IMG/VR virus record: IMGVR_UViG_3300009159_000033
Strand: one strand, 5' to 3'
Source: a virus
Length of the DNA: 64,000 bases
Of this stretch, positions 1,591-46,495 are shown piece by piece; within the stretch, counting starts at the first letter, position 1; every line of letters begins with the position of its first letter. A model generated the notes under the pieces. It was not told the DNA's origin, did not search any database, and worked only from the letters and a program-made list of their open reading frames with translations. Made by a program: the position numbers and the translations under genes.

Positions 1591-4500
1591 ATGCTTCCAC
1601 TTTCATCTAATTTGTTTGATTCTTCTAATCTCTCGTTGCTAGGGAATACACCTCCTTTAGCACAGCCGATGCAGCCATTGCCACCCGCAACTCCATTGCC
1701 TAGCTTTCATGAATTTCATGACACTAAGAAGGTCAGATCTATTATCTACGATAGAGTGCTGCAAGCAGCTCAGCAGCTACAGCCTATGGCTAATGATCGG
1801 CATACGCTTAGTTTAACTGGAGTAAATTACCGTGATGGTGATACCGCTAGCAAACAGGAGCAGAAAGCTGCCATTCTTAATGGTAGATCCCAAGGACGTA
1901 GGCTAGAAGGTACTTGGGAGTTAATGGATAACGCAACACAACAAGTAATCGCTTCTAAGAAATCAGTTCTTGCCACTGTGCCTCACTTGACGGATCGTGG
2001 CACCTTTATCAACAACGGCACTGAGTACATTCTAAGAAATCAACAGCGGTTATTGCCCGGAGTTTACACCCGCACACGGAACAATGGTGAAATTGAATCC
2101 CATGTTAATGTGATGCCTGGGAAAGGTGTATCACAGCGTTATTTCTTAGATCCCGAGAAAGGCAAATTTAAGCTTAAGGTTGGGCAAGCTTCAGTTGGAT
2201 TAACTCCTTTGTTAAAAGCTATGGGAGTTACCTCGGAGCAGGCGCAGGAAGCTTGGGGTAAAGATCTATTCGCTTCTAATTACAATTCGGATGATGCATC
2301 CGAATACACACGGCTTAAAGGCATGTTTCTTTCTTCTAAAGAACTAGCTGAGCCAGAAGAAAAACAAAAACAAGCATTGCTTGCTAAGTTTTCTAAGATG
2401 GAAATGGATCCCGAGGTAAATCGTCGCACGCTGGGAAACCCACATTCAGGTGTCACACTAGACACATTGATGGACATTACTAAAAAGCTGATAAAGGTTA
2501 ATAGGAAAGAAGCGGATCCGGATGACAGAGATGCACTTCACTTTCAGCAATTTGTAGGTCCAGAAGATTTGTTTTCAGAGCGTATTGCCCGAGATAAAGG
2601 CGGGGTACGACGTAACCTACTTTGGAAGATGTCGGGCAAAGGTGATTTAAACTCAATGCCATCTTCTGCTTTAGACAAACAGGTGAAAAGTGCTTTGCTT
2701 GGCAGCGGGCTGGGACAAGCTATTGAAGAAATTAATCCTACAGACATTTATGAAAAGACAATGTCTGTTACTCGAGTAGGTGAGGGTGGTATTGGTTCTA
2801 TGGATGCAATTCCCATGGAATCCAGAAATGTACAGTCAAGTATGCTGGGTTATGTCGATCCTGTGCGTACTCCCGAGTCGGGTCGTGTTGGGGTGGACAC
2901 TTATCTGGCTAGGGGATCTCGTAAGGGAAGTGATGGTAAGCTCTATGCTCAGTTTAAGGATATGCGTAACGGGGAAATGACTTTTAAAACTCCTCAAGAT
3001 GTAGCAGACCTAACTGTCGGTTTTCCCGGAAGCCAAGAAGGCGAAGATGGCCGTGTAGTGGCGATGCGTGGCGGTAAGATGTTACATGTACCTAAATCAA
3101 GCATTGATTTAGAGCTTCCTGACATGGAAGAAGCATTTAATCCTCTTTCCAATGTTATCCCTATGAAGAGTCAGGTAAAGGGTCAGCGATTAGTTATGGC
3201 ATCTCGTATGACTACACAAGCATTACCTTTAGCTTCTCCCGAAGCTCCTTTAGTACAGTCAGCGGTTCCCCGCACAGGTGGCAAACAAAGTTATGAAGAG
3301 CTATACTCGGCTGGGATGGGAGCTTTAAGAGCTTCCCAAGGGGGCACAGTTACCTCCGTGACAGATGAAGAGATTAAAGTGCGGAATGAAGATGGAACCG
3401 AGGAAACGCACGAACTTTATCACAACTTTCCTTTTAATCGTAAAACCTTTTTTCATCAAACCGCTGCAGTTCAACCTGGCGACACATTTAAGCCAAACCA
3501 GTTGTTAGCAAGTTCTAACTTTACAAACAAGACAGGAACAATGGCTTTAGGTACAAATGCACGTACCGCTTATATCCCATGGCAGGGTAAGAACTTTGAA
3601 GATGCAATTGTCATCTCAGAAAGTTTTGCAAAGAAGACAGCCTCTTCTCATATGTATCAGCATGAGCTGGAAGTGGATGACAAAACACAAGTTGGTAAAA
3701 GACAATTTATTCAAGCATTTCCAGCTACATTCAAGAAAGACATATTAGCGAACATAGATGATCAAGGAGTGATCAAACCAGGCACAGTAGTTAATTTTGG
3801 AGATCCTTTGGTACTAGGGATTACACAAAAGGAAAATGCATACAACAAGGTACATAAGAAGGGTCAAGCCGGGTTCAACGATGCAGCCGTACTTTGGCAG
3901 CATCACGATACTGGTGTTGTTACTGATGTGGTGATGGGTAAGAAGGGTCCGGTCGTTGTAGTTAAAGCAGAATCTCCAACGCAAGTTGGTGATAAGTTAT
4001 CTGGTCGTTATGGGGACAAAGGTGTTATTGCGGACATTATTCCAGATAGCGAAATGCCACACGATTCAAATAAGTTACCTTTTGAAGTGCTGCTTAACCC
4101 TCTTGGTATTATTAGTCGAACTAACCCTGCTCAAATGTCTGAATTGTTTCTAGGTAAAATAGCGGCTAAGCGTGGTATGCCGATTAAAGTAGATGATTTT
4201 GATACTAAAAAAGATATGACTCAATGGGTCATGCAAGAACTGGCTAAAGAAGGTTTGTCGGACTTAGAAGACATTATAGACCCATCTAAAGAACAAAAAA
4301 TTAAAAATATAGCAACTGGTAGTCGTTTCTTTATGAAGCTACATCATACTTCTGAGTCTAAAGGACAAGGTAGGAGCGGTGGTGCTTACACGATGGAAGA
4401 TGCCCCAGCCAAAGGTGGCATTGAAGGTTCTAAGCGTATTGGGCTAATGGATGCTAATGCCTTGCTATCTCACGGAGCCACGGACACACTGCAAGATATC

Positions 4501-6057
4501 TTCACAGTTAGAAGGCAGAAGAATGATCAGTATTGGATGCAGTACATGTCGGGGTATAACCCTAAAGTTACTAAGGTTCCTTTTGCTTATCAGAAGTTTG
4601 TAGCCCAGTTACAATCTGCTGGTGTTAATGTAGTCAAGCAGGGAACGCAGACTCAGATTATGGCATTAACGGACAAGGATATCGATAACTTAGCTGGGGA
4701 TCGTGAGCTTAGCAGTGCCGATGGAGTGGAGTGGGGCAACCAGCTTAAAGAGATTAATGGTGGCTTGTTTGACAAGGCTAAGACCGGCGGGCATGGTGGC
4801 ACTCGATGGTCGTTTATGCGTTTGCACGAACCTTTACCTAACCCAGTAATGGAAGAACCTATCCGTCATATGCTTGGGCTAACACAGAAAAAGTTTGAAG
4901 GTATTGTGGCTGGCACAGAATTTTTAGAGAAATATGGAACCGGTACGAAAGCGTTACAAAAAGCATTAGCAGATCTTAATCCTGCTGCAGAAATTCCTAA
5001 AGCTCGGGCTATTATTGCGGCGGGTAGAGGGGCTCAGCGGGATGAGGCAATTCGTAAACTTGGTTATTTTAAATCGGCACAGAAACTTAATTTGCAGCCT
5101 GCAGACTACATGCTGACCAAAGTTCCAGTTCTTCCCCCAATGTTTCGTCCAGTTAGCTTGATGAGCAACGGCATGCCATTGGTTAACGATGCTAATCACC
5201 TTTACAAAGAACTGTTTGAGGCTAATCAGAATTTTAGCAAAATGCAGCAAGAAGTAGGGGAAGAGGCTTCGGGATCGGAGCGTCTTTCCACCTATCAAGC
5301 ATTTAAAGCGGTGACTGGTCTAGGAGATCCGATTAGTGCAAAAAGCCAAGAGAAGAATGTTCGTGGGGCTTTAAAAAATGTGTTTGGTGCAAGTCCTAAG
5401 TTTGGGATTGTGCAACGTAAACTGATTTCTTCTACAGTAGACAATGTGGGCCGAGCGGTAATTACTCCAAATCCGGAATTGGACATGGACTCGGTAGGGC
5501 TACCCGAAGACAAGGCATTTAAGGTCTATGAGAAATTTGTTACTAGAAGATTGGTGCGACAAGGCATGTCTATGCTACAGGCTCGTACTCAATTAGAAGA
5601 TAAGACTCCAGTAGCACGCAAGTTCTTGCTTGAAGAGATGGAGCATCGTCCTGTATATATTAGTCGTGCTCCTGTTTTGCATAAGTTTGGGATTATGGCA
5701 ATGAGACCAAGATTGACTAAAGGAAATACCTTACAAGTGAGCCCTTTAATTGTAAAAGGGTTTGGTGCTGACTTTGATGGCGACACCATGAACTATCATG
5801 TGCCAAGTACGGAAAAAGCTAGGCAAGAGGCTTTTGATCGTTTGTTACCTAGTCGTAATCTTTTTAGCATAGGGGATATGAAATCTGTTATGCATGCCCC
5901 TGCTAATGAATACATTGGGGGTTTGTTTATGGGTACAGATCCTTCTCGTAAATCTGATCGACCAGTACGGATTTTTCAGAACATACAAGATGTAAGGCGA
6001 GCACATGCGCGCGGAGATATTTCAATCAACGATCCGGTACGAATTTTAAATGGGTAG
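1591..6057 (+). CDS. rpoBC: Phage multisubunit RNA polymerase: beta fused to N-terminal half of beta' (carries the catalytic DFDGD)
   Basis: RpoB motifs GTFINNGTEY..QQRLLPGVY, DPVRTPESGRVG, AYIPWQGKNFEDAIVISE, GDKLSGRYGDKGV, LLNPLGIISRTN, MKLHH; after ~4650 RpoC motifs GGLFD, VPVLPPMFRP, VDNVGRAVI, SRAPVLHKFGI, GADFDGD (5764-5784). Confidence 0.96.
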   Translation: MLPLSSNLFDSSNLSLLGNTPPLAQPMQPLPPATPLPSFHEFHDTKKVRSIIYDRVLQAAQQLQPMANDRHTLSLTGVNYRDGDTASKQEQKAAILNGRSQGRRLEGTWELMDNATQQVIASKKSVLATVPHLTDRGTFINNGTEYILRNQQRLLPGVYTRTRNNGEIESHVNVMPGKGVSQRYFLDPEKGKFKLKVGQASVGLTPLLKAMGVTSEQAQEAWGKDLFASNYNSDDASEYTRLKGMFLSSKELAEPEEKQKQALLAKFSKMEMDPEVNRRTLGNPHSGVTLDTLMDITKKLIKVNRKEADPDDRDALHFQQFVGPEDLFSERIARDKGGVRRNLLWKMSGKGDLNSMPSSALDKQVKSALLGSGLGQAIEEINPTDIYEKTMSVTRVGEGGIGSMDAIPMESRNVQSSMLGYVDPVRTPESGRVGVDTYLARGSRKGSDGKLYAQFKDMRNGEMTFKTPQDVADLTVGFPGSQEGEDGRVVAMRGGKMLHVPKSSIDLELPDMEEAFNPLSNVIPMKSQVKGQRLVMASRMTTQALPLASPEAPLVQSAVPRTGGKQSYEELYSAGMGALRASQGGTVTSVTDEEIKVRNEDGTEETHELYHNFPFNRKTFFHQTAAVQPGDTFKPNQLLASSNFTNKTGTMALGTNARTAYIPWQGKNFEDAIVISESFAKKTASSHMYQHELEVDDKTQVGKRQFIQAFPATFKKDILANIDDQGVIKPGTVVNFGDPLVLGITQKENAYNKVHKKGQAGFNDAAVLWQHHDTGVVTDVVMGKKGPVVVVKAESPTQVGDKLSGRYGDKGVIADIIPDSEMPHDSNKLPFEVLLNPLGIISRTNPAQMSELFLGKIAAKRGMPIKVDDFDTKKDMTQWVMQELAKEGLSDLEDIIDPSKEQKIKNIATGSRFFMKLHHTSESKGQGRSGGAYTMEDAPAKGGIEGSKRIGLMDANALLSHGATDTLQDIFTVRRQKNDQYWMQYMSGYNPKVTKVPFAYQKFVAQLQSAGVNVVKQGTQTQIMALTDKDIDNLAGDRELSSADGVEWGNQLKEINGGLFDKAKTGGHGGTRWSFMRLHEPLPNPVMEEPIRHMLGLTQKKFEGIVAGTEFLEKYGTGTKALQKALADLNPAAEIPKARAIIAAGRGAQRDEAIRKLGYFKSAQKLNLQPADYMLTKVPVLPPMFRPVSLMSNGMPLVNDANHLYKELFEANQNFSKMQQEVGEEASGSERLSTYQAFKAVTGLGDPISAKSQEKNVRGALKNVFGASPKFGIVQRKLISSTVDNVGRAVITPNPELDMDSVGLPEDKAFKVYEKFVTRRLVRQGMSMLQARTQLEDKTPVARKFLLEEMEHRPVYISRAPVLHKFGIMAMRPRLTKGNTLQVSPLIVKGFGADFDGDTMNYHVPSTEKARQEAFDRLLPSRNLFSIGDMKSVMHAPANEYIGGLFMGTDPSRKSDRPVRIFQNIQDVRRAHARGDISINDPVRILNG

Positions 6058-6129
6058 GCAATATATCTCTATCCTAGATTTTGATTAGAACTTAGAATCA
6101 TAAGATGAGATCACACAAGGAGTATGTTT

Positions 6130-6852
6130 ATGGCAGTTAATTTGGAATTGTTAAAGATGGCCCGACAACATGTAGGAAAACGCCATCTATCTAAATATGC
6201 ATTTGTTGCAGCAGGTGACCCAGCTATGGGTGCTCCTATGCCTTCTGGCGGTGCTCCTCCTATGGATCCTTCCATGGGTGGCGGTGCTCCACCTCCTGAC
6301 CCTTCAATGGGTGGTGCTCCTCCTATGGATCCTTCTATGGGCGGTGGTGCTCCTCCTATGGATCCTTCTATGGGTGGTGGTGCTCCACCTCCTCCCCCTA
6401 TGGACCCAATGGCAGCAATTATGCCAATGGTTCAACAGGCAGTACAACAAGCAATGTCGGCTAATGGTGGTGGGCAACCGCAAGGTGCGGGCCCTGGGCT
6501 TAAACCTAAAATTGACATAAATGTTGAAATTGTACAAATTAAAAAGATGCTTGCTAAAATTATTGATGCTCTTGGTATCCATGTGCCTGTGTCTGATATG
6601 GTGGTAACACCCGAAGATTTAAACCAGATTGCACAAGGTGGACCAGGCTTGGCAGCAGCTACTCCCGATGGTAAGTCGGGTGGCGGTCTTGGGCAGATTG
6701 CCCCTATTTCTCCGATCAAGGCTGCTGAAGCGTGGGAAAGTGGCACAGCTTTTAGTTTATCAGCTGACTACTATCCTCAGCAGCCTTCTAATAAAAATGG
6801 CAGTGTAGCTGCAATGGCTACTGCTCTTTTAATGCGTAATAATAACAAGTAA
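6130..6852 (+). CDS. Low-complexity Gly/Pro/Met-rich protein, putative head/scaffold-associated
   Basis: AAGGAG at 6117-6122 favours ATG 6130 over 6124; GGAPPMDPSM repeats; KYA and KAA motifs; no Cys. Confidence 0.65.
   Translation: MAVNLELLKMARQHVGKRHLSKYAFVAAGDPAMGAPMPSGGAPPMDPSMGGGAPPPDPSMGGAPPMDPSMGGGAPPMDPSMGGGAPPPPPMDPMAAIMPMVQQAVQQAMSANGGGQPQGAGPGLKPKIDINVEIVQIKKMLAKIIDALGIHVPVSDMVVTPEDLNQIAQGGPGLAAATPDGKSGGGLGQIAPISPIKAAEAWESGTAFSLSADYYPQQPSNKNGSVAAMATALLMRNNNK
6226..6410 (+). repeat. Coding tandem repeat (G)GGAPP(M/P)DPSM, about 5 imperfect copies
   Basis: Repeated ggtgctcctcctatggatccttctatg units visible in the DNA. Confidence 0.85.
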
Positions 6853-6865
6853 AGGGGTTCAGCGT

Positions 6866-7090: not shown

Positions 7091-7091
7091 T

Positions 7092-7664
7092 ATGGACTCT
7101 TCTTTACGATCTTCTGACTACTACTACCGAGACCGAAAACCAGAGGTTATTCCCGAGATTGTTCCTACTCCTACTTATCAACAATCCTCTAGTATAAACT
7201 CTTCTAACAATAAGTATTATGCCGAGATGGGACCACTTGTTGCAGAAGATGTCCCTCTTATTGCTAAGCTTCAGATGCCTCCGAAAGAAGTAGAATTGGA
7301 GATACTTGATGGTTGCTATGGCCTAGCTACCATACAAGCTGCATTTGAAGACGGAGCCACCCGCATCATAGTTAAAGCCTATGACTATGTAGTGACTCAA
7401 CTGCAAGTTGCTGTAGACATGTCAGTGGGTCGTGGAGAATTAACACGAGAGCAAACAGACTCTATAGTTTTTGTTGTCTTAGCCCCAGAAGCTATTCTTA
7501 GCCCAGAAGAAGTAGCTCTACCTATTGTAGATATGCCAGAGGCGACTGCTGTTTTAAACGAGGCTCCTAAGCCATCTCGTAAAAAAGCAAAGCGTGGCAA
7601 GAGTGAGGAAATTACTCTTAAAGATATCGAAGCTGCCTTTGGTGGTGACGATAGTGACGACTAA
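7092..7664 (+). CDS. Hypothetical acidic protein
   Basis: 190-aa ORF tiling the gap before the second RNAP gene. Confidence 0.55.
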   Translation: MDSSLRSSDYYYRDRKPEVIPEIVPTPTYQQSSSINSSNNKYYAEMGPLVAEDVPLIAKLQMPPKEVELEILDGCYGLATIQAAFEDGATRIIVKAYDYVVTQLQVAVDMSVGRGELTREQTDSIVFVVLAPEAILSPEEVALPIVDMPEATAVLNEAPKPSRKKAKRGKSEEITLKDIEAAFGGDDSDD

Positions 7665-7705
7665 AATCCAGATTTTAAATAATTTGCACACTCTGAGAAC
7701 TATCC

Positions 7706-10700
7706 ATGTTGAATACGACCGTTGGACAACTGTTAATTAATGATGTCCTTCCGGAAGAGTTGAGAGACTCCCATCGTGTGCTAGACAAAAAAGGGTTGCA
7801 ATCTTTACTACAGCAAGTGGCGCGGCAGCACCCAGAGAATTACCGAGATATATCTTTTAAGCTAAGTAATCTTGGTCAAAGTATAGCACAAGAGCAGGGT
7901 GGTATGTCGTTTGGGCTTCGTCACATGCAAGTAAGTAAATCTGCAATAGCTTCCCGCCAGAAGGTTAGAGCTTCTCTTACTAATATCCTAGCTGACGATT
8001 CTTTGACAGACCAAGAGCGAAACGAGCAGATTATTCGTGCAGTTGGCAAGGAAAGTCCAGAACAGCAAAAACAAATACTTGCAGAAGCGTTAAAAGACAA
8101 GAACCCTCTCGGTATGCAGGTTATGTCGGGTACCCGTGGTAAGTCTATGAATCTAACTAGTTTGTTAGGTTCAGACATGCTGTATTCGGACCAGCGTGAC
8201 GATGTAATTCCAATTCCTGTGCTGCGAAGTTACAGCGAGGGGCTGTCTCCTGCCGAGTACTGGGCTGGAACCTACGGAGCACGCAAAGGCATTATGGCAA
8301 CTAAGTTTGCCACACAAGATGCTGGATTCTTTAACAAACAACTTAATCAAACTAGTCATAGATTGGTAGTCACCGGAGAAGATGCCGAAGAGGCAGACGA
8401 CGCACCTATCCGTGGATTAGTGGTGGATACTGATGATCCAGACAATGAAGGGGCATTGCTAGCTCGTAATGTTGGTCCTTACGCTAGAAATACTCCACTT
8501 ACTCCAAAAATACTGAATCATTTAAAACGGCTTGGTACACCTAAAATCTTAGTGAGATCTGCCCTAGTGGGCGGGTCTCCCGATGGCGGTGTTTATTCTA
8601 GAGATGTAGGTATTAGAGAAACTGGAAAGCTGCCTGGGCTTGGCGAGCAAGTTGGGTTACAGGCTGCCCACGCTTTAAGTGAACCGATTAGCCAAGGTCA
8701 GTTATCTGCAAAGCATTCGGGGGGCGTGGCCGGACAAGAAAAAGCTGTTAGCGGTTTTCAGTATTTAAACCAATTAGTACAAGTTCCTAAGAAAATGCAA
8801 GGAGGGGCAGCCCACTCGTTAATGGATGGAGTGGTGCAGCGTATTGAAGAAGCCCCTGCGGGCGGGAGCTATGTCACCATTGGGGATAAACAACATTATG
8901 TAGGGGCTGGGTTTGAGCTTAAAGTAAAAAAAGGAGATGAGGTAGAGGCTGGTGATGTAATTAGTTCAGGAATTCCTAACCCAGCAACTATTACCGAACA
9001 TAAAGGAATTGGAGAGGGTAGGCGGTATTTTGTTAATGAGTTCCGCAAGGCGATGGGTGACAGCGGAATGTTTGGGCACAGACGTAATATTGAGGTGTTA
9101 GCCCGAGGTCTTATCAACCATGTAAGGCTGACAGAAGAAACAGATGACCATGTGCCTGACGATGTTGTTCCTTACTCTACGCTTGAACACACATACAAGC
9201 CACGAGAAGACCACCAGCGGTTAACTCCTAAGCGTGCATTAGGACAGTATCTAGAGCGCCCTGTACTGCACTACACTATTGGGACCAAGATTCGACCTTC
9301 TATGCTTAAGAATTTTGAAGATTTTGAAATTAATGAAATTCCAGTGCATAAGAACCCACCGCCATTTGAACCAAACATGGTTCGTGGGTTGTATCAAATG
9401 CAACATGATCCCGATTGGATGACACAAATGTATGGGTCTGGTCTAAAGAAAAGCTTCTTAGACTCTGTGACTCATGGGGCTATCAGCGAAGAACGAGGTA
9501 CAAGCTTTGTTCCAAGCTTAGCAATGGGTCTTGATTTTGGAGAAGGTAAAAACCATGCGGTAATAAAACCTCAGCCTAGTTATGAGCTACCGGCATTACC
9601 TCCACTTCCTCCCCCTATTCCTTCTACTCCTGCTGCGGCAAAGCCTACAGCTCCTAGCAGTGCTCCTTTTTTTGGCGGGCGTTTTACCCCTGGGCAAACT
9701 AAGCTAGGATTAGATAGCACACCTTCTGTGTCTAAGCCACCTTCTGTCTCTAAGCCACCTGCTGTAACCAGTATGTCACCAGTTTCTAAGCCTCTTAATA
9801 CAAACATTATGCCTTCTCCTACTCCAGCCCCCAAAACTGCACCGACTACCCCAAGTTCAAACCAATTTAGTAACTTGATGCAAAACGATACTTTTGCACA
9901 GCAAACTGGTCAGATGTTAAACGGAGCAGATCCTACAAGTGCACTTATGATGCTAGGAGGCATGGCAGGGGGTAGTAATAACATGTCTCAGTTATTTAAC
10001 TCTGGGCCTTCGCAGCGATTAGCCACAAGCGGTAGTGGCGGTGGAATGTTTGGTAATTTGTTTAATATGTTTGGGAATAACAATCAAAATGGGCAATCAA
10101 TTATGCCCAGTGGAGATTACAACTCAGCTACAAATCAAGGCGGGATGTTGAGTAGTAACACATCTGCGGAATCTGCACCCGCATCTTCAGCAGAAGCAGT
10201 TCCTGCAGAGGCTACATCAAAAGCTGGTCCAGATATATTTACAGCTGTAGATCATGCACCGGCGGCCTATACCGCTATAAAAAATACAATCGTACCGCCT
10301 AAGGCATTACCTACTCCCCCTGCGCCTACTGCACTAGTGCCTAAAGCACCGCTACCTACAGCTCCAGCACCTATTACCCCTACTCCACCGATACCCAAAG
10401 CACCAATACCCAAAGCACCAATGCCAGCTGCACCAATACCAGCTGCACCCGGAGGTTTACTTAGTAAAGTAATGCCAGCAGTTTCCACGACTTACAAAAC
10501 ATTGGCTAAAGCAGCCCCTGGTATTGGAATAGCTTTAGAAACTGGGAGTGTCGGTTACGATGTTTACAATAAGGGTTGGGATAACACAACTAACGACGCA
10601 GCACAAAATATAAGAAACATTGCTTCAGGTAAAGATGGGTTGCACACATTGTGGCAAGCTCCTGTTCAAATTTTAAACCCAGTGGCTAACGCACAGCTAA

Positions 10701-11425: not shown

Positions 11426-11444
11426 TATTAGTTGTGTGCTTGTA

Positions 11445-11476: not shown

Positions 11477-11512
11477 TCTAATAATTTCAAGTTTTAAACT
11501 TAGGTGAATATT

Positions 11513-11722: not shown

Positions 11723-11738
11723 GTAATACAATCGAGGA

Positions 11739-34777: not shown

Positions 34778-34786
34778 GGAGCAACG

Positions 34787-39200: not shown

Positions 39201-42200
39201 ACAGAGAAGATGCGGACAGAGATGGAAGGACAACAAAAGAAAGCTACTACAGAAGAAATTAATGCCCTTACTCCCGCTGCCCGCAAAGAATATAAAGAGA
39301 ATGAAAAGCAGTTAAGCCGAAAAGCTGAAGATCAATTAATTGCGGAGAATCAGTTACGCAGTCTAGGAATACTTGGAGCAGAAGAAACTTTGAGTGGTAA
39401 GGGTGCAGATATTGCCAAGTTTGAAGGGTTAAAAGGTAAAGATAAAGATCAGCTTCGCAAAGACCTAGCTGCAGCCAAAACTGAAGACAGAGCAGCAATT
39501 GTCAGCAAGTATATTGACAACAAACAAGTTGAGCAGTTTTATGGGAAAACCGAAGCAGAAGTTACAAAGAAAAGAGATTCTGCAAATACCTACGCAACAT
39601 CTTCCGAAGGCCAGCGAGCAGCTCAAGACACCGAATCCCGAATAGGTAGTCTTTCTGACACAAGACGAGAATTTCTATCTGATGCCAAAGCGGTTAGTCG
39701 TGGAGGTGCCCGCTCAATAATAGCTGCAAAGCAAAGTCGAGAAGCTGAAGAAGAACTTCAGACTATGGCGAATAAGTATTTTGATGGGAATGTTGGCAAG
39801 ATGGTTAGCAGTGGCGGGGCTGCGATGACAGAAGAAAACTATGCCAAGGTTAAAACCGACCTTGGTAAATTGTCTGACGCAGAAAAGACCACAGTAACTG
39901 AGCGGTTAAAAGCTGCGGGTCAAGACATAGGCGGGTCAAAGAATCTTAACGAAAAGCATTATGCTGCTTACCTTTCGCTTAAATCCAAAGACCTAGTTGG
40001 AACGATGAAAGATTCGATAGAGGGTATGTCTGGCGGAGCGGGGCAGACCTATGCCGAGCTACTTAAGCCAACAGATGCAACTAAGACAATGGCAAAAGAG
40101 ATGATGGGTAAGGATGTATCAAGTGCACAAGAAACAGGGCTACAAGCTATTAGTTCTGCTGCCACTTTAAACAACATAGATGTTAAGAAGGCTACGGCTG
40201 GTTTAGATATGAAAAAAATCACTAGCCAAATTGCAGCTGGTGCAAAAATTGATACATCAAAAATGACGGAAGAACAAAAAACTTTAATCAAATCGGCAGA
40301 AGGAATGAAAGGGTTATCGAGTCTAACTAAGGAACAGATTAAATCCTTAGAGACTATTTCTAAAGAAGAAACAAAAGATATTAAAAAGGAAGCAGAAGCT
40401 TTAGGTATGACGGAAGAAGAATACCGCAAAGCTGCTAAAGATGGGGTTATTGATCCTAAACTTAAACTGTTTAAGGATGAGACCACGAAAGGTGTTACTG
40501 GGGCAGAAAAGCTTGAAATAGCAAGGAAAGGGGAAGTAACCTTAACTGATACGAAAAACCAATTAAAAGAAGCACAGGCAGCATTAGCAAAAGATCCAAA
40601 ATCTAAAGAAGCCAAGGCAGAAGTAGATCGATTACAAGGATCAGTAGCAGAGCAGACTGAAATAAAATCTGCTCGCATGAAAGAGGCTGGGTTAGATAGC
40701 AAAAAAGCCGAAGATGTTAAGAAGTATGAGCAACGCTTAGCAACTGAAGGTAAAGCAACTACCCCTAACATGTTCAAAGACGACCCAGAAAAGAAGGGCA
40801 TTACTGCAGTAGAAAAGCTTGAAACAGCAAAGAAAGAAGAAGCATCATTAACTGATACAAAAACTGAATTAGAAAAAGCAAAAGAAGAACTAGCAAAAGA
40901 TCCGGAATCAAAAAGTGTTAAAGCAAAAGTAGATCATTTGCAAGGTCTTGTAACAAAGAAGACTGAAGATAAATCTGCACGCATGAAAGAAGCGGGGCTG
41001 GATAGTAGCAAAGCTGAAGATGTTAAAAAGTATGAAGAAGGTTTAAAAGACGAAGGTAAAGCAGCTGACCCTAATCTTAGGTTGTTTAAAGATGATCCAG
41101 CTAAGAAAGGTAAAACTGCTACAGAAAAGCTTGAAATAGCAAAGAAAGAAGAAGTGGAATTAAAGGGCACAAAAGATCAATTAGCAAAAGCAAAAGAAGT
41201 ATTAGCAAAAGATCCAGAATCGGAAAAGGCAAAAGAAGATGTAGCTAAGTTAGAGAATGTCTTGGCAATTAGGAATAAAGATAAATCAGAACGAATGAAA
41301 GAAGTAGGTTTAGACAGTAGCAAAGCTGAAGATGTTAAGAAGTACGAAGAAGGCTTAAAGGACGAAAGTAAAGAAGCTGATCCTAATCTTAGATTGTTTA
41401 AAGATGATCCAGACAAGGTGGGTGGTAAGGGTAGAGGCACGGCTAAGGAGCAGTTACAAAAAGCAAGACAAGAAGAAGCATCATTAAAATCTACAAAAGA
41501 GCAACTGCGAAAAGCAGAAATTGCATTAGAGAAAAGGCCAGAAAATCCTGGGGCACAAAAGGAAGTAGAAAGGTTACGAGGACTCGTAACAAAGAAGACT
41601 GACGATAAAGCAGAAAAGATGAAAGAAGCTGGTTTAGATATAAACAAACCAGAAGATGTTAAAAAGTATGGTCAACTTTTAGATAATCAAGGTAAATTAG
41701 AACAGCTTGAAAAAAGTAAAGCGATCATAGCTGCAGAAGATAAAAAGTTAAAAGATAGCGGTATGTCTGATGAAGACATCGTTAAGTATAGAGGTATTCA
41801 AAAGGAGCAAGAAATAGCTGGCAAAAAACAGGCTAAAGAGCTTGCTGACAAAGATTTAGGCAGCGATGCCATGAATACTCTAGCTGATTCTTTCGGTAAG
41901 ACATCTAAAGAAGATCGTCAGAAGTTTAAGGAAGAGATGGGTAAAGGTGGCGGTAAGGGTGAGTCTGGAGACCGCAACAAGCAGATGGTTGCTAATGTCC
42001 TTAAAGATGTAGGCAAGTTAACCACAATCGGAGATAGCAAAACTTCAGCCATTGATAAGCTGGACATGCTTACGGATGAATATGCTGCAGCTAAAACACC
42101 AGACGCAAAAAAAGCATTAGCAAAGAAGCATGGTATGTCTGAGGATGCCTTAGAAAGCACAATGAAGAAGACTGAGTTTTTAGGTATGAAAGATAAAAAA

Positions 42201-42383
42201 GACAAGTACACAGAAAAAGATTTGAATGAGTCTTTAGGTCGAGTTGGCAAGCGAGATGTGGAAACAGAAGTTAAAAAGGAAGCTGATCGCACCATGAAGC
42301 TAACTGGTACACTACAAGTTAAAGGCACAATCAATGGTGAAGGAACTTTAAACGATACTACTTCAACTGGTGGTACCCGCTAA
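36249..42383 (+). CDS. Tape measure protein
   Basis: 2044 aa, helical, Ala/Lys/Glu-rich, no Cys, follows the chaperone pair and precedes baseplate genes. Confidence 0.85.
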   Translation: MTMDPSQLSWMQDATQGLLPGGQFSPHPSGGAGYLAQLAKGYSPAIQGNSLPDTSPLAPLNLQQYGIGGMLAGAVGNSYLSGQMQQQGLLPMGNAGSYMQAHRTREHLRMKNDVSAGVASQDADGIYRSFRGAAALAGVPFDRKQREAARNISDTVASLGPTLSMVAPDFMDAISGEKGSVQAMAGQMMEANRYRADPITGKMGYSTESNKNLVNNVFENMFSKDNMAQMNGMRAGDMGQAYRQLSSEGLVGPTGSLRDRTIQSLQEGREQGMDLKAIGKKAGVEINDDTNLSNLSNEALTKLRKDSTVSAKMGKDDARQVADQLQGYVGSLSAIREVFGENGDANAPVPKLINALKAMTSGQMQKFSPGQLTSMVRDMQAMSQLSGKSIDQLAAMNQYANTQNSQMMGGYGVHFNPASLKVGTTTGMAFAEHGGATGFGALNREQAEQASMGLFSRGMGSQMNNALGALTRIEEAGGFAENEAGREMKAVLAAADSGAHTYTFVDDNGKSKTKNTPTKESEFRSIVGRGAVEGMSTSDFNMMLGDTTSNLRALSTNEERQQAALRQQPAEVAREIERSTANRLSSNKALKDQVSSPKERAEIAAALGKAATTATDELTMEQLQDPKQRNQAIADALQSEAGNRGVTLTDAEAQNMAATSFGQRESVLRTRLDMDATSYAQTHGKAVRESREDKQAEVSARAGINEAMSGLGPKGSFLQRASTALQKQGDRGGEANLDTMLGDMFAGDMDEASKQLNKPLESVRASQSKIESLTNQLQGASPEDKKRIQKEIKEETVMLKKHVTASRELADSLGLTDKEGEFNQADIAKGKEAARELDHFNRIEQVRVSGATATVTDLERKGASTTKLTDNDLRVIAEKDRTNKLQEADKIAAGDIKKMSPEAKETYDKAIASGATEEAARARVKEKLRSNVASVDSRAREMREELGTEATVGGLKDKEVQDAIIQKRRSDVEMKPTAKAVEDRTEKMRTEMEGQQKKATTEEINALTPAARKEYKENEKQLSRKAEDQLIAENQLRSLGILGAEETLSGKGADIAKFEGLKGKDKDQLRKDLAAAKTEDRAAIVSKYIDNKQVEQFYGKTEAEVTKKRDSANTYATSSEGQRAAQDTESRIGSLSDTRREFLSDAKAVSRGGARSIIAAKQSREAEEELQTMANKYFDGNVGKMVSSGGAAMTEENYAKVKTDLGKLSDAEKTTVTERLKAAGQDIGGSKNLNEKHYAAYLSLKSKDLVGTMKDSIEGMSGGAGQTYAELLKPTDATKTMAKEMMGKDVSSAQETGLQAISSAATLNNIDVKKATAGLDMKKITSQIAAGAKIDTSKMTEEQKTLIKSAEGMKGLSSLTKEQIKSLETISKEETKDIKKEAEALGMTEEEYRKAAKDGVIDPKLKLFKDETTKGVTGAEKLEIARKGEVTLTDTKNQLKEAQAALAKDPKSKEAKAEVDRLQGSVAEQTEIKSARMKEAGLDSKKAEDVKKYEQRLATEGKATTPNMFKDDPEKKGITAVEKLETAKKEEASLTDTKTELEKAKEELAKDPESKSVKAKVDHLQGLVTKKTEDKSARMKEAGLDSSKAEDVKKYEEGLKDEGKAADPNLRLFKDDPAKKGKTATEKLEIAKKEEVELKGTKDQLAKAKEVLAKDPESEKAKEDVAKLENVLAIRNKDKSERMKEVGLDSSKAEDVKKYEEGLKDESKEADPNLRLFKDDPDKVGGKGRGTAKEQLQKARQEEASLKSTKEQLRKAEIALEKRPENPGAQKEVERLRGLVTKKTDDKAEKMKEAGLDINKPEDVKKYGQLLDNQGKLEQLEKSKAIIAAEDKKLKDSGMSDEDIVKYRGIQKEQEIAGKKQAKELADKDLGSDAMNTLADSFGKTSKEDRQKFKEEMGKGGGKGESGDRNKQMVANVLKDVGKLTTIGDSKTSAIDKLDMLTDEYAAAKTPDAKKALAKKHGMSEDALESTMKKTEFLGMKDKKDKYTEKDLNESLGRVGKRDVETEVKKEADRTMKLTGTLQVKGTINGEGTLNDTTSTGGTR
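40452..41694 (+). repeat. Four ~102-104-aa tandem repeats in the tape measure
   Basis: Units start at 40452, 40761, 41067, 41379: (DP)N..LFKDDP..EKLE.A.KEE..LAKDP.S..RMKEAGLD..KAEDVKKY. Confidence 0.9.
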
Positions 42384-42393
42384 GGAGTAAGAT

Positions 42394-42879: not shown

Positions 42880-42887
42880 GGCTACTT

Positions 42888-43682
42888 ATGTTCAATCACG
42901 CACGCACATTACTTTTGAATATAGATGGAGGGCCAGGATATTTCCCTGAGTGTCCTGGTGAAGAACTGATTCCGAGAGGCTATGAAAAGTTAGAACTTCC
43001 CACTTACCTCGATGTGTTTCGCTCTCGTTTCTTTGGTGCAGACCCTGACCGTGCTATGCTGAATTATCGTTCTTGGCAGTTGTTGCAATTGGTTGAAGCT
43101 ACGGAGTTACAATCCCATATCCTTGCATTAGATCCTCGCATTACTTATGACTTAAATGTTAATAGACTTAGTCTGCAGAACACATTTTTACCTAAGGTTA
43201 CACAACAAGGCGGAACCTCGTCACAGACCCTTACTTTGGCTGGAACCCCAATCAAACCAGATGTTTCGGGAAAAGCTACTTTTGATTATCAAATTAGCAT
43301 ACTTGAAGGCGAAATCATTAAAGTACAAAGGCTTACTTTTCCTTTAATAGATGTACAGCATCTACTAACTTTAACTGATGGGATCAGTCCATACTTTACA
43401 CTGCCTTTATCTGGTTATAGGTTTTGTGTGAGCACAACAGATCCCACAATATCTTGGCGGATACAAGGATACCTTAGGCCACAAAATAGCTTATCTGAAA
43501 TTGAGAAAGGGTTTCGTAGTATTGGAGAGCCTTACTTACTTCAACTCTTTGGTACATCTCCCGATGAGCCTTATGCTACTTTCCGAAATTGCTGGGAAAA
43601 ACATCCTGAGTTTGCTTATCGGCTAGGAAGCGTGGTACTTGCAATGATTTACCGTACGGAAGAAATATATAATGGCAGATAA
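42888..43682 (+). CDS. Hypothetical baseplate-region protein
   Basis: 264-aa ORF tiling the baseplate operon. Confidence 0.55.
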   Translation: MFNHARTLLLNIDGGPGYFPECPGEELIPRGYEKLELPTYLDVFRSRFFGADPDRAMLNYRSWQLLQLVEATELQSHILALDPRITYDLNVNRLSLQNTFLPKVTQQGGTSSQTLTLAGTPIKPDVSGKATFDYQISILEGEIIKVQRLTFPLIDVQHLLTLTDGISPYFTLPLSGYRFCVSTTDPTISWRIQGYLRPQNSLSEIEKGFRSIGEPYLLQLFGTSPDEPYATFRNCWEKHPEFAYRLGSVVLAMIYRTEEIYNGR

Positions 43683-45741
43683 ATCAACTAACTGGGCAAT
43701 GGTGGACTTATCTGCACGAGATGGCGGAGCATCATTAGTACTACGCATTGGAGGCGATCAAATTCCAGTATCTCAGTTTAGTATGAGTTATGGGCAAAAC
43801 GATATTCCAAAGGCTACGGCACTAGTGGCACTTGGGCGAGATGCTAGGACTGGAGATGTCTCGTCCATCTATCCGCAGATAAACGCAATTAAACAGATGG
43901 CGGCAGTGCGCGTATTTATCCGAGGTAATCTAGGGGATTGGTCTCCTCGTGGGATAGATGGTACAAAAGAATCTTTTCCAATTGCTAACGATGCCACTAT
44001 TTTTATTGGATATGTTTCAGGCATAAGCTATCGCCGTTCGGCGGGTCGTGTCAGTTTAGTTTTGAATTTGGTAAATCAATTAGTAGATTTGGCTCTTTCT
44101 TCCGGTGGAAGTAAAGATGTAGTGCCAGGATCTCCTAGCGATCTTATGCTGCCTATACACCTTGAAGGGTCAGGGGCCGGAAGGGCTGCAGATAAATTTA
44201 TAAATACGCTCAAAGTTGATTTAGAAACCGATTTTAGTGCGGCTGTGCTTAAAGTTTTAAAAAATGTTTCCAAAGAAAATCAGCTCCAAACCCACGAGGG
44301 TACAGCTTGGTGTCAAGGAGTCGATGGTCCAAAAGCTGATATAGAAGCTAATGAAATGGCAGCGTCAGTAATTGATGGCAAAGGTAGATGGCAAGGTATT
44401 TCTAATGCTGCAACTGGAACAGAAGTAGACAAGTATCTTGATGATTACCCTTTGTTAGTGCCTGGAGCACAAACACAAAAAGCAGCCACAGCTATTGGAG
44501 AACATGTTGCAGCTTCGCTTTCTGGTACAAGTATGTGGAGTATGATGATTGGTTCAATGTTAACAGATTTTGGCTGCGGGGTTATTCCTTGGGCATCTGG
44601 AGCAATTGTGGCTCCTATTCTTCCTATGGCAAAAGAGGCGCAGGTAATACTTAAAGCAGGAGAATATGTAGATTTTGATTTATCTACACAATGTCAGCGA
44701 CCTCTCTATGGGGTAGGTGTTATGGGTAATTTTCAAATGGGAACTCTTAACAGATCTCAAGATCCAAAGGTTTGCTGTGGTGCTACCTATGTGGCTAAAA
44801 CTGCAGATAATTTTCCAGCAAATGATGGTATGTGGATATTTGTAAAAGCTCCGAGTTGGCTAGATGATTGGGTTAACCAAGATCCGCAAGCTGCGGATGG
44901 TAACGCAGATATAATAAAAACGATGAATGAACCTTCGCACGACGCAACTGGTATTGATGAGGTAGCAATAAATCGGGATATAGGTACTGAAGCAGATGAC
45001 TGGAATGACGCAATGGCGGAATATGCAAAACTTATATATGCCATTAATGCCTTGCGTGGTAGAGAAGGCACTGTAGTAGGTAAGCTTAGGTTTGATATTA
45101 CCCCTGGTACGACCATAATGATAGAAGCCAAAGGAGATAAATACCTATCAGCTGGCGTGGATACCTTGGCAACGAATATGTATGGGCTTGTAGCTAAGGT
45201 ACATATATCTATTAATGCAGAACAAGCTTCAGCCACTACCGCTTTTGAATTAACTAATCTACGCACAGAAGTTGAAAATAATTCAGCGGACGGAAGATTT
45301 TCAATGCAGCGACATCCATTCTTTGGAAACAATTATTTTAAGTATGCACCACTAGTTCCAGGACTCACAGTGCCTAAAAAAGAGCCGGTAGCTGGGGCAT
45401 TACCTAATCCTAGCGTTGGAGTAGGTAGCGAAGGAGCTGAAACAACTCCGAGTGCAAGTTCTGTTGATGCAACAGGATTAGCCCGCATATTGGGGCCTAT
45501 CGCTGGAGGAATTTTTGATCCCTTGGACGCTTTCCCCTCCGATGATGTAGGTACGCAGCGAACCTTAAGCCCCGCAGATGTATTAGCTTCGCAACTATCC
45601 CCACCATATAACCCTGCCCTAGATGTTGAAAATAATCCTCAACCTGTAGATGAAACAGGTAACTTATATGTAGGAACAGGTGGTGGTTTTCCACTACCTG
45701 AAAAAGACAGTGGAGAAGCAGGACAAACTACAATAATTTAA
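43672..45741 (+). CDS. Putative baseplate hub (gp27/gpD-like) with an acidic Pro-rich C-terminal tail
   Basis: IPVSQFSMSYGQNDIPKATALVALG; EGTVVGKLRFDITPGTTIMI..GLVAKVHISI. Confidence 0.6.
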   Translation: MADKSTNWAMVDLSARDGGASLVLRIGGDQIPVSQFSMSYGQNDIPKATALVALGRDARTGDVSSIYPQINAIKQMAAVRVFIRGNLGDWSPRGIDGTKESFPIANDATIFIGYVSGISYRRSAGRVSLVLNLVNQLVDLALSSGGSKDVVPGSPSDLMLPIHLEGSGAGRAADKFINTLKVDLETDFSAAVLKVLKNVSKENQLQTHEGTAWCQGVDGPKADIEANEMAASVIDGKGRWQGISNAATGTEVDKYLDDYPLLVPGAQTQKAATAIGEHVAASLSGTSMWSMMIGSMLTDFGCGVIPWASGAIVAPILPMAKEAQVILKAGEYVDFDLSTQCQRPLYGVGVMGNFQMGTLNRSQDPKVCCGATYVAKTADNFPANDGMWIFVKAPSWLDDWVNQDPQAADGNADIIKTMNEPSHDATGIDEVAINRDIGTEADDWNDAMAEYAKLIYAINALRGREGTVVGKLRFDITPGTTIMIEAKGDKYLSAGVDTLATNMYGLVAKVHISINAEQASATTAFELTNLRTEVENNSADGRFSMQRHPFFGNNYFKYAPLVPGLTVPKKEPVAGALPNPSVGVGSEGAETTPSASSVDATGLARILGPIAGGIFDPLDAFPSDDVGTQRTLSPADVLASQLSPPYNPALDVENNPQPVDETGNLYVGTGGGFPLPEKDSGEAGQTTII

Positions 45742-45757
45742 CAAGGAGTACCTAATC

Positions 45758-46495
45758 ATGATGGACGATTATTTAGAAGACGAATATAAACCAGCATTTC
45801 AAAGCTGGCAGCAGAATCAAACACCAGAAGGCAACGCTGCCTTACTGAAAGCACTTGATCCAATAGTACAAAAGGGGGTCAAGATGTATGGGGCAGATAG
45901 CCCATTAACTTCTAGCCGTGCCAAGCTTTTAACATTGGACGCAGTGCGTAAGTACGATCCTAAGCGGTCTCGGTTACAGTCTCATTTATTAAACCAAATG
46001 CAAGGGCTGCGTAGGATCAACCAACAGCAACATCAAGTAATAAGCGTACCCGAACGCATATTACTAGAGAATCAAAGGTTACATGGATCCACACAAGAAC
46101 TGTCAGATGAGCTTGGTCGAGAGCCTACTGACGCAGAACTGTCAGATAAATTAGGGATAGCTATGCCTCGACTTGCAAAGATTCGGAGTTATCAACCCGG
46201 AGTTAACACAGGAAGACTAGATGCAATTGACCCATTAGCGGGCGGTGCTCCAAGTGTAATTCCTAACCAACAAGCCAGCGCAGATCTATGGGGCGAAGTG
46301 GTTTACCAAGGACTTAGTCCTTTAGACCAGCGTGTCATGGAACTGACTTTGGGAATGCGTGGAAATAAAAAACTATCGAATCAAGAGATTGCAGCTAAGC
46401 TTAATCGCAGCCCAGGTGCGATTACCCAGCGTAAAACTAAGATACAGCAATTGCTGGATCAAGAACAAAAATTATCCCCTTTCCTTGCGAGATAA
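45758..46495 (+). CDS. Sigma70-family sigma factor (regions 2, 3 and 4), divergent
   Basis: LDAVRKYDPKR (region 2.2-2.3), ELSDELGREPTDAELSDKLGI (region 3), LSPLDQRVMELTLG..LSNQEIAAKLNRSPGAITQRK (region 4 HTH). Confidence 0.85.
   Translation: MMDDYLEDEYKPAFQSWQQNQTPEGNAALLKALDPIVQKGVKMYGADSPLTSSRAKLLTLDAVRKYDPKRSRLQSHLLNQMQGLRRINQQQHQVISVPERILLENQRLHGSTQELSDELGREPTDAELSDKLGIAMPRLAKIRSYQPGVNTGRLDAIDPLAGGAPSVIPNQQASADLWGEVVYQGLSPLDQRVMELTLGMRGNKKLSNQEIAAKLNRSPGAITQRKTKIQQLLDQEQKLSPFLAR

What the first reader, a model, noticed from the sequence alone, without database searches (positions are those of the whole stretch)
1591..46495. Candidate virion-delivered bacterial-type RNAP holoenzyme (beta-beta'N + beta'C + own sigma)
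Seen: both RNAP genes lie among head-protein genes upstream of the protease, scaffold and MCP; a sigma factor lies inside the baseplate operon; I found no Cys in any of the three polypeptides (1488, 1239 and 245 aa). Known: the ejected N4 virion RNAP is Cys-free, and phiKZ-type phages package a multisubunit RNAP that is highly divergent and does not use a sigma70. Inference: this phage packages and injects a recognisably bacterial-type RNAP with its own sigma. RNAP-encoding tailed phages have been reported from metagenomes (the 'mReC' group, recalled from memory and not checked), so the lineage may be known even if this packaging model is not.
Basis: partly seen in the sequence, partly recalled or inferred. 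Interest (0 to 1): 0.92.

Follow-up and report, generated by a model that had tools for sequence, protein, structure and literature searches.

The report
Cysteine-free phage RNA polymerase with sigma
An uncultured 173-kb tailed phage encodes its only RNA polymerase (two chains) and its own sigma factor without a single cysteine or zinc site, among virion genes. The enzyme is probably carried in the virus particle and injected, as mass spectrometry of a cultured relative already hints.

Summary
ORF 1591-6057 is RNAP beta fused to the N-terminal part of beta' (1488 aa). ORF 7706-11425 is the C-terminal part of beta' plus a long tail (1239 aa). ORF 45758-46495 is a complete sigma70-family factor (245 aa) inside the baseplate module. 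None has a cysteine, and both beta' zinc sites are replaced.

The trait is selected. Across hundreds of relatives, mature RNAP residues carry 0.01-0.09% Cys, while inteins inside the same genes carry about 2%. Of 120 sigma relatives, 119 are Cys-free.

The sigma-in-baseplate position holds in 79 of 80 related viral contigs. Complete relatives have one RNAP and one such sigma.

Packaging cannot be shown from sequence. However, the orthologues in Salmonella phage Arash (gp206, gp216, gp10) were found in particles at peptide densities equal to the major capsid protein (PMC10585845). Arash's second sigma was not found there.

The Arash paper hints at it, and this scan reached the same reading on several other genomes. 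mReC membership is not supported. Cys-freeness matches N4 vRNAP but not phiKZ vRNAP, so it is suggestive only.

The parts
1591..6057 (+). RNAP beta fused to the N-terminal part of beta' (1488 aa). It carries the catalytic GADFDGD. It has no Cys, and the beta' zinc-binding domain is replaced by KTGGHGGTRW.
   Evidence: Pfam. PDB alignments to bacterial beta (E 1.5e-67) and to cyanobacterial gamma / beta' 171-552. More than 100 homologues have the same length.
6124..6852 (+). Conserved 242-aa protein between the two RNAP genes, Cys-free and rich in Met, Pro and Gly (repeats of PSMGGGAPP). Function unknown.
   Evidence: Homologues in five relatives are all Cys-free.
7664..7677 (.). Palindromic motif AAATCCAGATTTTA, 42 nt upstream of the beta'C start. 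It belongs to a family of about 20 copies in the genome.
   Evidence: 20 copies against 0.85 expected; the same position in relatives L009 and L011.
7706..9565 (+). beta' C-terminal core (residues 1-620) with bridge helix and trigger loop. The Zn-II cysteines are replaced.
   Evidence: Alignment to beta' 658-1169. Arash and D69 keep C232/C284/C291/C294 where the window has A/G/Y/S.
9566..10462 (+). Low-complexity linker of about 300 aa (P/A/S/T/G/M/N-rich) within the beta'C ORF.
   Evidence: C-terminal tails have a median length of 584 aa in 120 homologues and 0.03% Cys.
10463..11425 (+). Conserved all-helical C-terminal domain of beta'C (about 320 aa). Function unknown.
   Evidence: Conserved in 33-47 homologues. 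AF2 pLDDT is 70.6 overall and 80-95 in the last 200 aa. No fold match in the PDB.
18953..20431 (+). Homologue of Arash virion protein gp222; possible prohead protease (a lead only).
   Evidence: tblastn 36-40% identity. The nearest named Atlas clusters are Peptidase S77/S78/S80 at score 0.89.
20473..21672 (+). Acidic, low-complexity, Cys-free 399-aa protein; scaffold-like (inference).
22806..23753 (+). Major capsid protein (315 aa, Cys-free).
   Evidence: 29% identity to Arash gp226 MCP, E 7e-33. Weak hit to phrog_2522, major head protein.
36249..42383 (+). Helical, repeat-bearing, Cys-free 2044-aa protein in the tape-measure position.
   Evidence: position between the tail and baseplate genes.
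43672..45741 (+). Conserved 689-aa upstream neighbour of sigma in the baseplate module.
   Evidence: A homologue lies directly upstream of sigma in 74 of 80 related contigs.
45758..46495 (+). Sigma70-family factor (245 aa, Cys-free); orthologue of Arash gp10.
   Evidence: Pfam and NCBIfam. PDB sequence hits. AF2 model plus Foldseek: all 50 listed hits are sigma factors, or sigma-RNAP models, at probability 1.0. 25% identity to gp10, E 2e-14.
47744..49405 (+). Baseplate J-like protein, which marks the module around sigma.
   Evidence: Pfam PF04865, E 1.9e-11. Found 1.6-2.2 kb from the sigma start in 78 of 80 related contigs, and 5.8 kb away in one more.

Best explanation
The phage encodes a slimmed, bacterial-type RNA polymerase in two chains: beta-beta'N, and beta'C with a long tail. 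It has no alpha or omega, no zinc site and no cysteine. It also encodes one dedicated sigma70-family factor.

Proposed mechanism:
1. The genes are made together with virion genes (inferred).
2. Core enzyme and sigma, probably with an SNF2-type helicase encoded elsewhere in the genome, are built into the particle (inferred from a relative).
3. They enter the host with the DNA and start phage transcription without host RNAP or new protein synthesis (inferred).
4. Because complete relatives have only this one RNAP and one such sigma, newly made copies of the same holoenzyme would also serve later transcription (inferred).
5. Loss of every Cys and of both Zn sites would suit a protein that is stored outside cells, passes the tail unfolded, crosses the oxidising periplasm and refolds without a cofactor (inferred).

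Shown here: the gene architecture, intact catalytic elements, the loss of Cys and Zn sites and its conservation, the synteny, and the single copy number.
For: Architecture and catalytic elements. No alpha or omega homologue.

Copy number: one Rpb2_6 locus in this contig. Five relatives, two of them 100% complete, each have one Rpb2_6 locus and one sigma of this family.

Cys avoidance is selected on the mature protein:
- 94 of 104 same-length beta-beta'N homologues have 0 Cys.
- In 260 homologues (40-96% identity), aligned residues have 0.014-0.093% Cys, against 2.0-2.2% in the intein inserts of the same genes.
- beta'C core 0.011%, its inteins 2.14%, its tails 0.03%.
- Sigma: 1 Cys in 29,451 residues of 120 homologues.

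Synteny: sigma sits between the 689-aa protein and Baseplate_J in 74 to 79 of 80 viral contigs, down to about 30% identity, and also in Arash (gp8-gp10-gp13). The order beta-beta'N ... beta'C ... gp218-like ... gp222-like ... MCP is shared with Arash and Vibrio phage D69.

Arash particle mass spectrometry (PMC10585845):
- gp206 has 128 unique peptides, the most of any protein; gp216 has 40, gp10 has 24 with 100% coverage, and helicase gp217 has 38.
- Per 100 aa these are 8.4, 6.6, 10.3 and 8.1, against 9.8 for the MCP, 5.5 for the portal and 0.4-1.4 for the RNR and helicases.
- The second Arash sigma, gp196 (3 Cys), is absent from the table.

Other points:
- N4 gp50 vRNAP, gp51, gp52 and the MCP are Cys-free, while N4 tail and replication proteins are not.
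- Sigma70-consensus promoters are not enriched on the coding strand (19 against 24.4 expected).
Against: - There are no data on particles of this phage.
- The Arash preparation (sucrose gradient plus pelleting) yielded 116 of 252 proteins, including RNR, ligases and primase. The authors themselves offer carry-over as an alternative.
- phiKZ vRNAP has 16 Cys in 2614 aa, so Cys-freeness is not a general mark of packaged RNAPs.
- The RNAP chains and sigma lack the EK.A motif that marks the N-termini of the MCP and other head-module proteins, so no capsid-targeting or processing signal is identified.
- In this genome the portal is 44 kb away and almost all genes share one strand, which weakens the operon argument.
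- Two chains of 165 and 135 kDa would have to pass a contractile tail and reassemble without alpha. No precedent was examined here.
- The host is unknown, so the lack of sigma70-type promoters may only reflect a host with a different consensus.
Confidence: 0.65

Rival explanations
1. The RNAP is not a virion component. Host RNAP transcribes early genes, and the phage RNAP-sigma holoenzyme takes over middle and late transcription, as T7 RNAP does. Its presence in Arash particle preparations is carry-over of a very abundant late protein, and Cys loss has another cause, such as oxidative stress or a thiol-directed host defence.
For: The Arash preparation contained many non-structural enzymes. phiKZ vRNAP is not Cys-free. 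No targeting or processing motif is present in the RNAP chains. Only one RNAP is encoded, so it must in any case act after entry.
Against: - Peptide density for RNAP, sigma and helicase equals that of the MCP and is 6- to 20-fold above that of the evident contaminants.
- The non-module sigma gp196 was not detected.
- RNAP and sigma genes sit inside head and baseplate modules across the clade, not in an early region.
- No sigma70-type promoters stand out.
- The Cys pattern copies that of N4's internal proteins.
Confidence: 0.2
2. The RNAP core is packaged, but the sigma is mainly a late-gene or host-RNAP-directing factor, like T4 gp55. On this reading its baseplate position reflects late autoregulation rather than delivery with the core.
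For: - Regions 2.3/2.4 are divergent: Pfam Sigma70_r2 is not matched.
- Sigma is encoded about 34 kb from the RNAP genes.
Against: - Arash gp10 has the highest peptide density of all the proteins computed (10.3 per 100 aa).
- Sigma shares the strict Cys avoidance of the core.
- A late sigma encoded inside a late operon could not start late transcription.
- Complete relatives encode no other full-length sigma of this family.
Confidence: 0.1
3. The proteins are packaged but serve inside the capsid, for example in DNA organisation or as an inner body, and are not ejected or not active after ejection.
For: The long disordered tail on beta'C and the neighbouring low-complexity proteins resemble internal head proteins in make-up.
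Against: All catalytic elements are under strong conservation: DFDGD, bridge helix, trigger loop. It is the only RNAP in complete relatives, so it must transcribe.
Confidence: 0.03

Closest known systems
Salmonella phage Arash (OQ632216; gp206 + gp216 + sigma gp10 + helicase gp217) and Vibrio phages D69, D148 and D181
   Same: - beta-beta'N fusion plus a separate beta'C.
- The same gene order relative to the MCP.
- Sigma in the baseplate module.
- A near-Cys-free beta fusion (1-2 Cys), a Cys-free sigma and, in Arash, a Cys-free helicase.
- Orthologues detected in Arash particles.
   Different: - Only 25-30% identity.
- Arash and D69 keep the four Zn-II cysteines in beta'C.
- They lack the long beta'C tail (606-609 aa against 1239 aa).
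- The portal is adjacent to the RNAP gene in Arash and D69 (D69 by homology).
- Arash and D69 each have a second annotated sigma (Arash gp196, D69_0246).
phiKZ / AR9-type virion multisubunit RNAP
   Same: A multisubunit two-barrel RNAP with split beta/beta', no alpha or omega, genes among head genes, packaged for early transcription (reviews PMC7598289, PMC7824862).
   Different: - The phiKZ enzymes are too divergent to be matched by sequence.
- No sigma70-family factor is found in those phages.
- They come as two sets, vRNAP plus nvRNAP.
- They are not Cys-free.
- Here there is one set, a bona fide sigma and clear similarity to bacterial beta/beta' (E 1e-67).
Coliphage N4 virion RNAP gp50
   Same: A Cys-free enzyme encoded next to head genes and ejected with the DNA. 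The same pattern of Cys-free internal proteins and MCP against Cys-bearing tail and replication proteins.
   Different: N4 gp50 is a single-subunit, T7-like polymerase of 3500 aa without sigma, in a podovirus.
mReC (multi-subunit RNAP-encoding Caudovirales; Weinheimer & Aylward 2020, PMC7481178)
   Same: Metagenomic tailed phages with beta/beta' that HMMs of the cellular subunits can detect.
   Different: - Listed mReC pairs are mostly beta 1009-1017 or 1361-1365 aa with beta' 903-1009 aa; at least one pair differs.
- Their MCPs hit PF07068 (gp23), while this MCP does not.
- None of 12 IMG taxon ids of relatives appears among the rows listed as mReC.
- The paper mentions neither sigma, virion nor cysteine.
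Poxvirus core transcription apparatus (RNAP + VETF + NPH-I), from general knowledge
   Same: An analogy only: a multisubunit RNAP, an initiation factor and an SNF2-type helicase carried in the particle.
   Different: A eukaryotic virus with no homology of the initiation factor. Not tested here.

Membership tests
Bacterial-type multisubunit RNAP (beta/beta') | beta domains, including Rpb2 domain 6 and the conserved GDK..R.G.KG motif | tested here: met
   PF00562, E 1.4e-50. 'GDKLSGRYGDKGV' aligns with Taq 'GDKLANRHGNKGV'. Bacterial beta chains at E 1.5e-67.
Bacterial-type multisubunit RNAP (beta/beta') | beta' catalytic NADFDGD loop, bridge helix and trigger loop | tested here: met
   GADFDGD with the three Asp invariant. 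Bridge helix 'YGARKG' and trigger loop 'KHSGGVAG' aligned to beta'.
Bacterial-type multisubunit RNAP (beta/beta') | The two beta' zinc sites (4 Cys each) | tested here: not met
   There is no Cys at all. The Zn-II positions are A/G/Y/S where Arash has C232/C284/C291/C294. The Zn-I segment is replaced.
Bacterial-type multisubunit RNAP (beta/beta') | alpha dimer and omega subunits | tested here: not met
   No PF01000 or PF01192 match in the contig. The contig is 84% complete, and use of host alpha is not excluded.
Sigma70 family | sigma3 and sigma4 domains | tested here: met
   PF04539 at 26.7 bits against a cut-off of 25.3; r4 at 17.1 bits, below its cut-off. Alignment to SigA 215-371. Fold search: all 50 listed hits are sigma factors, or sigma-RNAP models, at probability 1.0 over 226-270 columns.
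Sigma70 family | sigma2 domain with region 2 determinants | tested here: inconclusive
   No PF04542 match. However, the FliA/WhiG model aligns residues 22-232, below its cut-off, and the model has an N-terminal helical domain.
Sigma70 family | Binds the core enzyme (beta' clamp helices) | tested here: inconclusive
   The only test was a co-fold of sigma with P0001 residues 1040-1488; its verdict of weak support is recorded under Tried and rejected. Binding needs biochemistry.
Virion-packaged, injected phage RNAP (N4, phiKZ, AR9, crAss kind) | Protein present in purified particles | not testable with these tools
   Only by proxy: the orthologues in Arash particles have MCP-like peptide density.
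Virion-packaged, injected phage RNAP (N4, phiKZ, AR9, crAss kind) | Gene located and expressed with virion genes | tested here: met
   Location is met. Timing of expression was not tested.
Virion-packaged, injected phage RNAP (N4, phiKZ, AR9, crAss kind) | Early transcription independent of host RNAP and of new protein synthesis | not testable with these tools
   Indirect only: there is no excess of sigma70-type promoters. Several residues that align with what I recall as the rifampicin-contact segment of beta differ from the Taq sequence; their identity as Rif contacts is from memory.
mReC lineage | Contig or architecture as listed (mostly beta 1009-1365 aa + beta' 903-1009 aa) and a gp23-type MCP (PF07068) | tested here: not met
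   1488 + 1239 aa here. The MCP has no PF07068 match. The taxon ids of relatives are not among the rows listed as mReC. No tree with mReC sequences could be made.

The most novel reading that the evidence does not exclude
A large, mostly uncultured phage clade carries a complete transcription starter kit in the particle: a two-chain, zinc-free and cysteine-free bacterial-type RNAP, a true sigma70-family factor and an SNF2-type helicase, in roughly equal amounts. The same single holoenzyme then runs the whole infection, so the phage never needs host RNAP. This would be the first sigma-dependent packaged RNAP. It would also be a natural minimal beta/beta'/sigma enzyme that folds and assembles without alpha, omega, zinc or thiols.
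Probability: 0.4. Interest if true: 0.8.

Novelty: new variant of a known kind. Interest (0 to 1): 0.6.

Why it matters
Known packaged multisubunit phage RNAPs (phiKZ, AR9) are very divergent, and no sigma70-family factor is encoded by those phages. A packaged enzyme that is plainly bacterial-type and uses a true sigma factor would link phage and cellular transcription.

It would also give a natural alpha-, omega-, zinc- and thiol-free minimal RNAP for structural and assembly studies. And it would explain how a very abundant metagenomic phage clade, with hundreds of 50%-identity clusters, escapes dependence on host RNAP.

Cultured relatives exist (Arash on Salmonella, D69, D148 and D181 on Vibrio), so the model can be tested directly. 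The intein-versus-extein contrast gives a clean, sequence-only demonstration that Cys avoidance acts on the mature protein.

Tried and rejected
- PHROGs and Pfam on about 40 window proteins gave almost nothing.
- mReC membership could not be settled. Ids of relatives are not among the rows listed as mReC, and no mReC sequences were on hand for a tree.
- Complex prediction of sigma with the beta'N part: ipSAE 0.55, best of 3 controls 0.00, verdict 'weak support'. The three runs agreed in at least 60% of contacts, and the partner pLDDT was 66-68. The mark was reached by 58 of 80 solved complexes and 2 of 110 mismatched pairs, but scores of 0.60 or under came from only 7 of those solved complexes and both mismatches. 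Sigma-core complexes are solved, so the score may reflect likeness. It is not used as evidence.
- The beta'C C-terminal domain folded as a helical bundle with no PDB fold match.
- Promoter hunting: there is no excess of sigma70-consensus sites. Two early-region repeats have only 3-4 copies. The AAAATCCGGATTTT palindrome is over-represented, but many copies lie inside genes, so its role is open.
- The EK.A (KxA) motif from another first-stage note is enriched, but it is absent from RNAP and sigma.
- A candidate second sigma (a 303-aa ORF hit weakly by Arash gp10) has no family match.
- The idea that Cys-freeness marks all packaged RNAPs was rejected by the phiKZ control.
Full report

The window is the reverse strand of bases 213-64212 of a 172,719-bp IMG/VR viral contig, which CheckV rates 84% complete.

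- ORF 1591-6057 (1488 aa) carries Rpb2 domains 3 and 6 followed by Rpb1 domains 1 and 2. It aligns first to bacterial beta (E 1.5e-67) and then to beta' residues ~171-552, or cyanobacterial gamma. So it is beta fused to the N-terminal part of beta', including the catalytic loop (GADFDGD).
- ORF 7706-11425 (1239 aa) aligns over residues 2-494 to beta' 658-1169, with bridge helix and trigger loop intact.
- ORF 45758-46495 (245 aa) is a sigma70-family protein:
  - Pfam r3 scores above its cut-off and r4 below it.
  - FliA/WhiG and SigB/F/G NCBIfam models align nearly full length but below their cut-offs.
  - PDB sigma chains match by sequence.
  - An AlphaFold model (pLDDT 77.5) gives 50 listed Foldseek hits that are all sigma factors, or sigma-RNAP models, at probability 1.0.
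- All three proteins have zero Cys, against 1.35% genome-wide. The chance expectation is about e^-40.
- Both beta' zinc sites are gone. The Zn-II positions read A/G/Y/S where phages Arash and D69 keep C232/C284/C291/C294. The N-terminal zinc-binding segment is replaced.
- No alpha or omega homologue was found.

THE CYSTEINE LOSS IS SELECTED, NOT DRIFT OR COMPOSITION

- Of 104 same-length beta-beta'N homologues (53-96% identity), 94 have no Cys.
- In 260 homologues down to 40% identity, residues that align to the window protein carry 0.014-0.093% Cys. The unaligned inserts in the same genes, mostly inteins and homing endonucleases that are spliced out, carry 2.0-2.2%.
- The same holds for beta'C: core 0.011%, inserts 2.14%, C-terminal tails 0.03%.
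- The 120 sigma homologues hold a single Cys in 29,451 residues.

The intein/extein contrast is an internal control. It places the constraint on the mature protein.

CONTEXT

- The MCP (22806-23753) is homologous to the Arash MCP.
- ORF 18953-20431 is homologous to Arash virion protein gp222. Its nearest named Atlas clusters are prohead proteases, which is a lead only.
- ORF 47744-49405 is Baseplate_J-like.
- In 79 of 80 related viral contigs (sigma identity 29-97%) a Baseplate_J homologue lies downstream of sigma: 1.6-2.2 kb from its start in 78, and 5.8 kb in one more. In 74 of 80 the 689-aa upstream neighbour is also kept.
- Arash has the same arrangement: gp8, gp10 sigma, gp13.
- The order beta-beta'N, beta'C, gp218-like, gp222-like, MCP is shared with Arash and Vibrio phage D69.
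- In this genome the portal is about 44 kb upstream, and nearly all genes lie on one strand. The operon argument alone is therefore weak.
- Five relatives, two of them complete and one with terminal repeats, each have exactly one Rpb2_6 locus and one sigma of this family.

THE KEY OUTSIDE EVIDENCE IS PUBLISHED

Salmonella phage Arash was isolated in 2023 (PMC10585845). It shares about 30% identity in the RNAP and 25% in sigma. Its particles were analysed by mass spectrometry.

- gp206 (beta fusion) had the most spectra and 128 unique peptides. gp216 (beta'C) had 40, gp10 (sigma) had 24 with 100% coverage, and helicase gp217 had 38.
- Normalised by length, these are 8.4, 6.6, 10.3 and 8.1 peptides per 100 aa. 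The MCP gives 9.8 and the portal 5.5. The co-detected ribonucleotide reductase and replication helicases give 0.4-1.4.
- The second Arash sigma, gp196, lies outside the virion modules, has 3 Cys, and is absent from the table.
- The preparation was only sucrose-gradient purified, and 116 proteins were listed. The authors leave open whether the enzymes are packaged or carried over.

CONTROLS ON THE 'CYS-FREE MEANS INJECTED' ARGUMENT

- N4 gp50 indeed has no Cys in 3500 aa. Neither do gp51, gp52, gp57 and the MCP, while N4 tail and replication proteins have 0.5-1.7%.
- phiKZ vRNAP has 0.61% Cys, against 1.16% for its non-virion paralogue. The sign is suggestive, not diagnostic.

BEST READING (ABOUT 0.65)

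Core and sigma, probably with the SNF2-type helicase encoded about 25 kb upstream of the window, are built into the particle and delivered with the DNA. They then start transcription. With only one RNAP in complete relatives, the same enzyme would also serve later stages, unlike the two-enzyme phiKZ scheme. Loss of zinc and thiols would suit storage outside cells, unfolded passage and cofactor-free refolding; this is inference.

Supporting but weak:
- There is no excess of sigma70-type promoters.
- Residues that align with what I recall as the rifampicin-contact segment of beta are substituted relative to the Taq sequence. This predicts rifampicin-insensitive transcription. Which residues contact the drug, and their E. 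coli numbering, are from memory.

Against:
- No targeting or processing motif is seen. The EK.A motif found near the N-termini of the MCP and other head-module proteins is absent from RNAP and sigma.
- There are no data for this phage.

RELATION TO KNOWN WORK

- The reviews I read describe packaged multisubunit RNAPs only for phiKZ/AR9-type phages, which encode no sigma70-family factor.
- The mReC paper mentions neither sigma, virion nor cysteine. Its listed subunit lengths and its gp23-type MCP do not fit this phage. I do not file this phage under mReC.
- After reaching this reading, I found that the scan had already followed up the same kind of RNAP on several other genomes, with the same conclusion and the same closest relative. 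Those notes are not independent evidence.

NEW DETAILS HERE

- The beta'C tail is widespread, with a median of 584 aa. It consists of a disordered linker plus a conserved helical domain of about 320 aa with no known fold match.
- Arash-type phages still keep Zn-II, while this clade has lost it.

Noticed in passing
window 10463-11425: The beta'C chain ends in a conserved all-helical domain of about 320 aa, behind a disordered linker of about 300 aa. It is present in 33-47 of 120 homologues, is Cys-free, and has no PDB fold match. It might tether or target the enzyme.
   Followed up: partly
window 7664-7677, 12353, 17984, 31893, 48755, 55809 and other genome sites: The palindrome AAAATCCGGATTTT occurs about 20 times (with up to 2 mismatches) against 0.85 expected. 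Several copies lie 25-42 nt upstream of start codons, including that of beta'C. Some sites are kept in relatives. It could be a promoter or an operator.
   Followed up: partly
window 788-1570, 17792-18940, 20473-21672, 22806-23753, and genes upstream of the window: The motif E-K-x-A is enriched (45 against 19 expected). It lies near the N-termini (positions 11-61) of the MCP and several Cys-poor head-module proteins, which fits a prohead-protease site after Glu. It is absent from RNAP and sigma. ORFs 788 and 17792 also have glycine-zipper, membrane-like segments.
   Followed up: partly
window 24293-25525: A family-2 glycosyltransferase (E 1.5e-11), with a weak methyltransferase-like C-terminal part, lies directly after the MCP gene. 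It may modify the capsid.
   Followed up: no
window 63583-64000: An array of 9-bp repeats (GGACCACAAGG-like) at the contig end, consistent with a collagen-like Gly-X-Y fibre protein.
   Followed up: no
G000:C1:73325-73456 (about 9 kb upstream of the window): A 72-aa ORF matches only sigma region 4. Similar small ORFs (72-130 aa) are present in four relatives. It could be a minimal sigma-like or anti-sigma regulator.
   Followed up: partly
G000:C1:88182-89705: An SNF2/Helicase_C protein (506 aa, 1 Cys) is homologous to Arash gp217 (32% identity). gp217 is Cys-free and abundant in Arash particles, so this may be a co-packaged partner of the RNAP.
   Followed up: partly
homologues P0034-P0388, P0420-P0502: RNAP genes of this clade are heavily invaded by inteins and homing endonucleases, giving proteins of up to 3350 aa. 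Some relatives have forms of about 1900-2050 aa with a single matched stretch, possibly full beta-beta' fusions.
   Followed up: partly
window 6124-6852 and 20473-21672; portal gene region upstream: Shared 'MGGGAPP' repeat units, from the same 10-mers GGTGCTCCTC/GTGCTCCTCC, occur in three places: the protein between the RNAP genes, the scaffold-like protein, and inside or near the portal gene.
   Followed up: no
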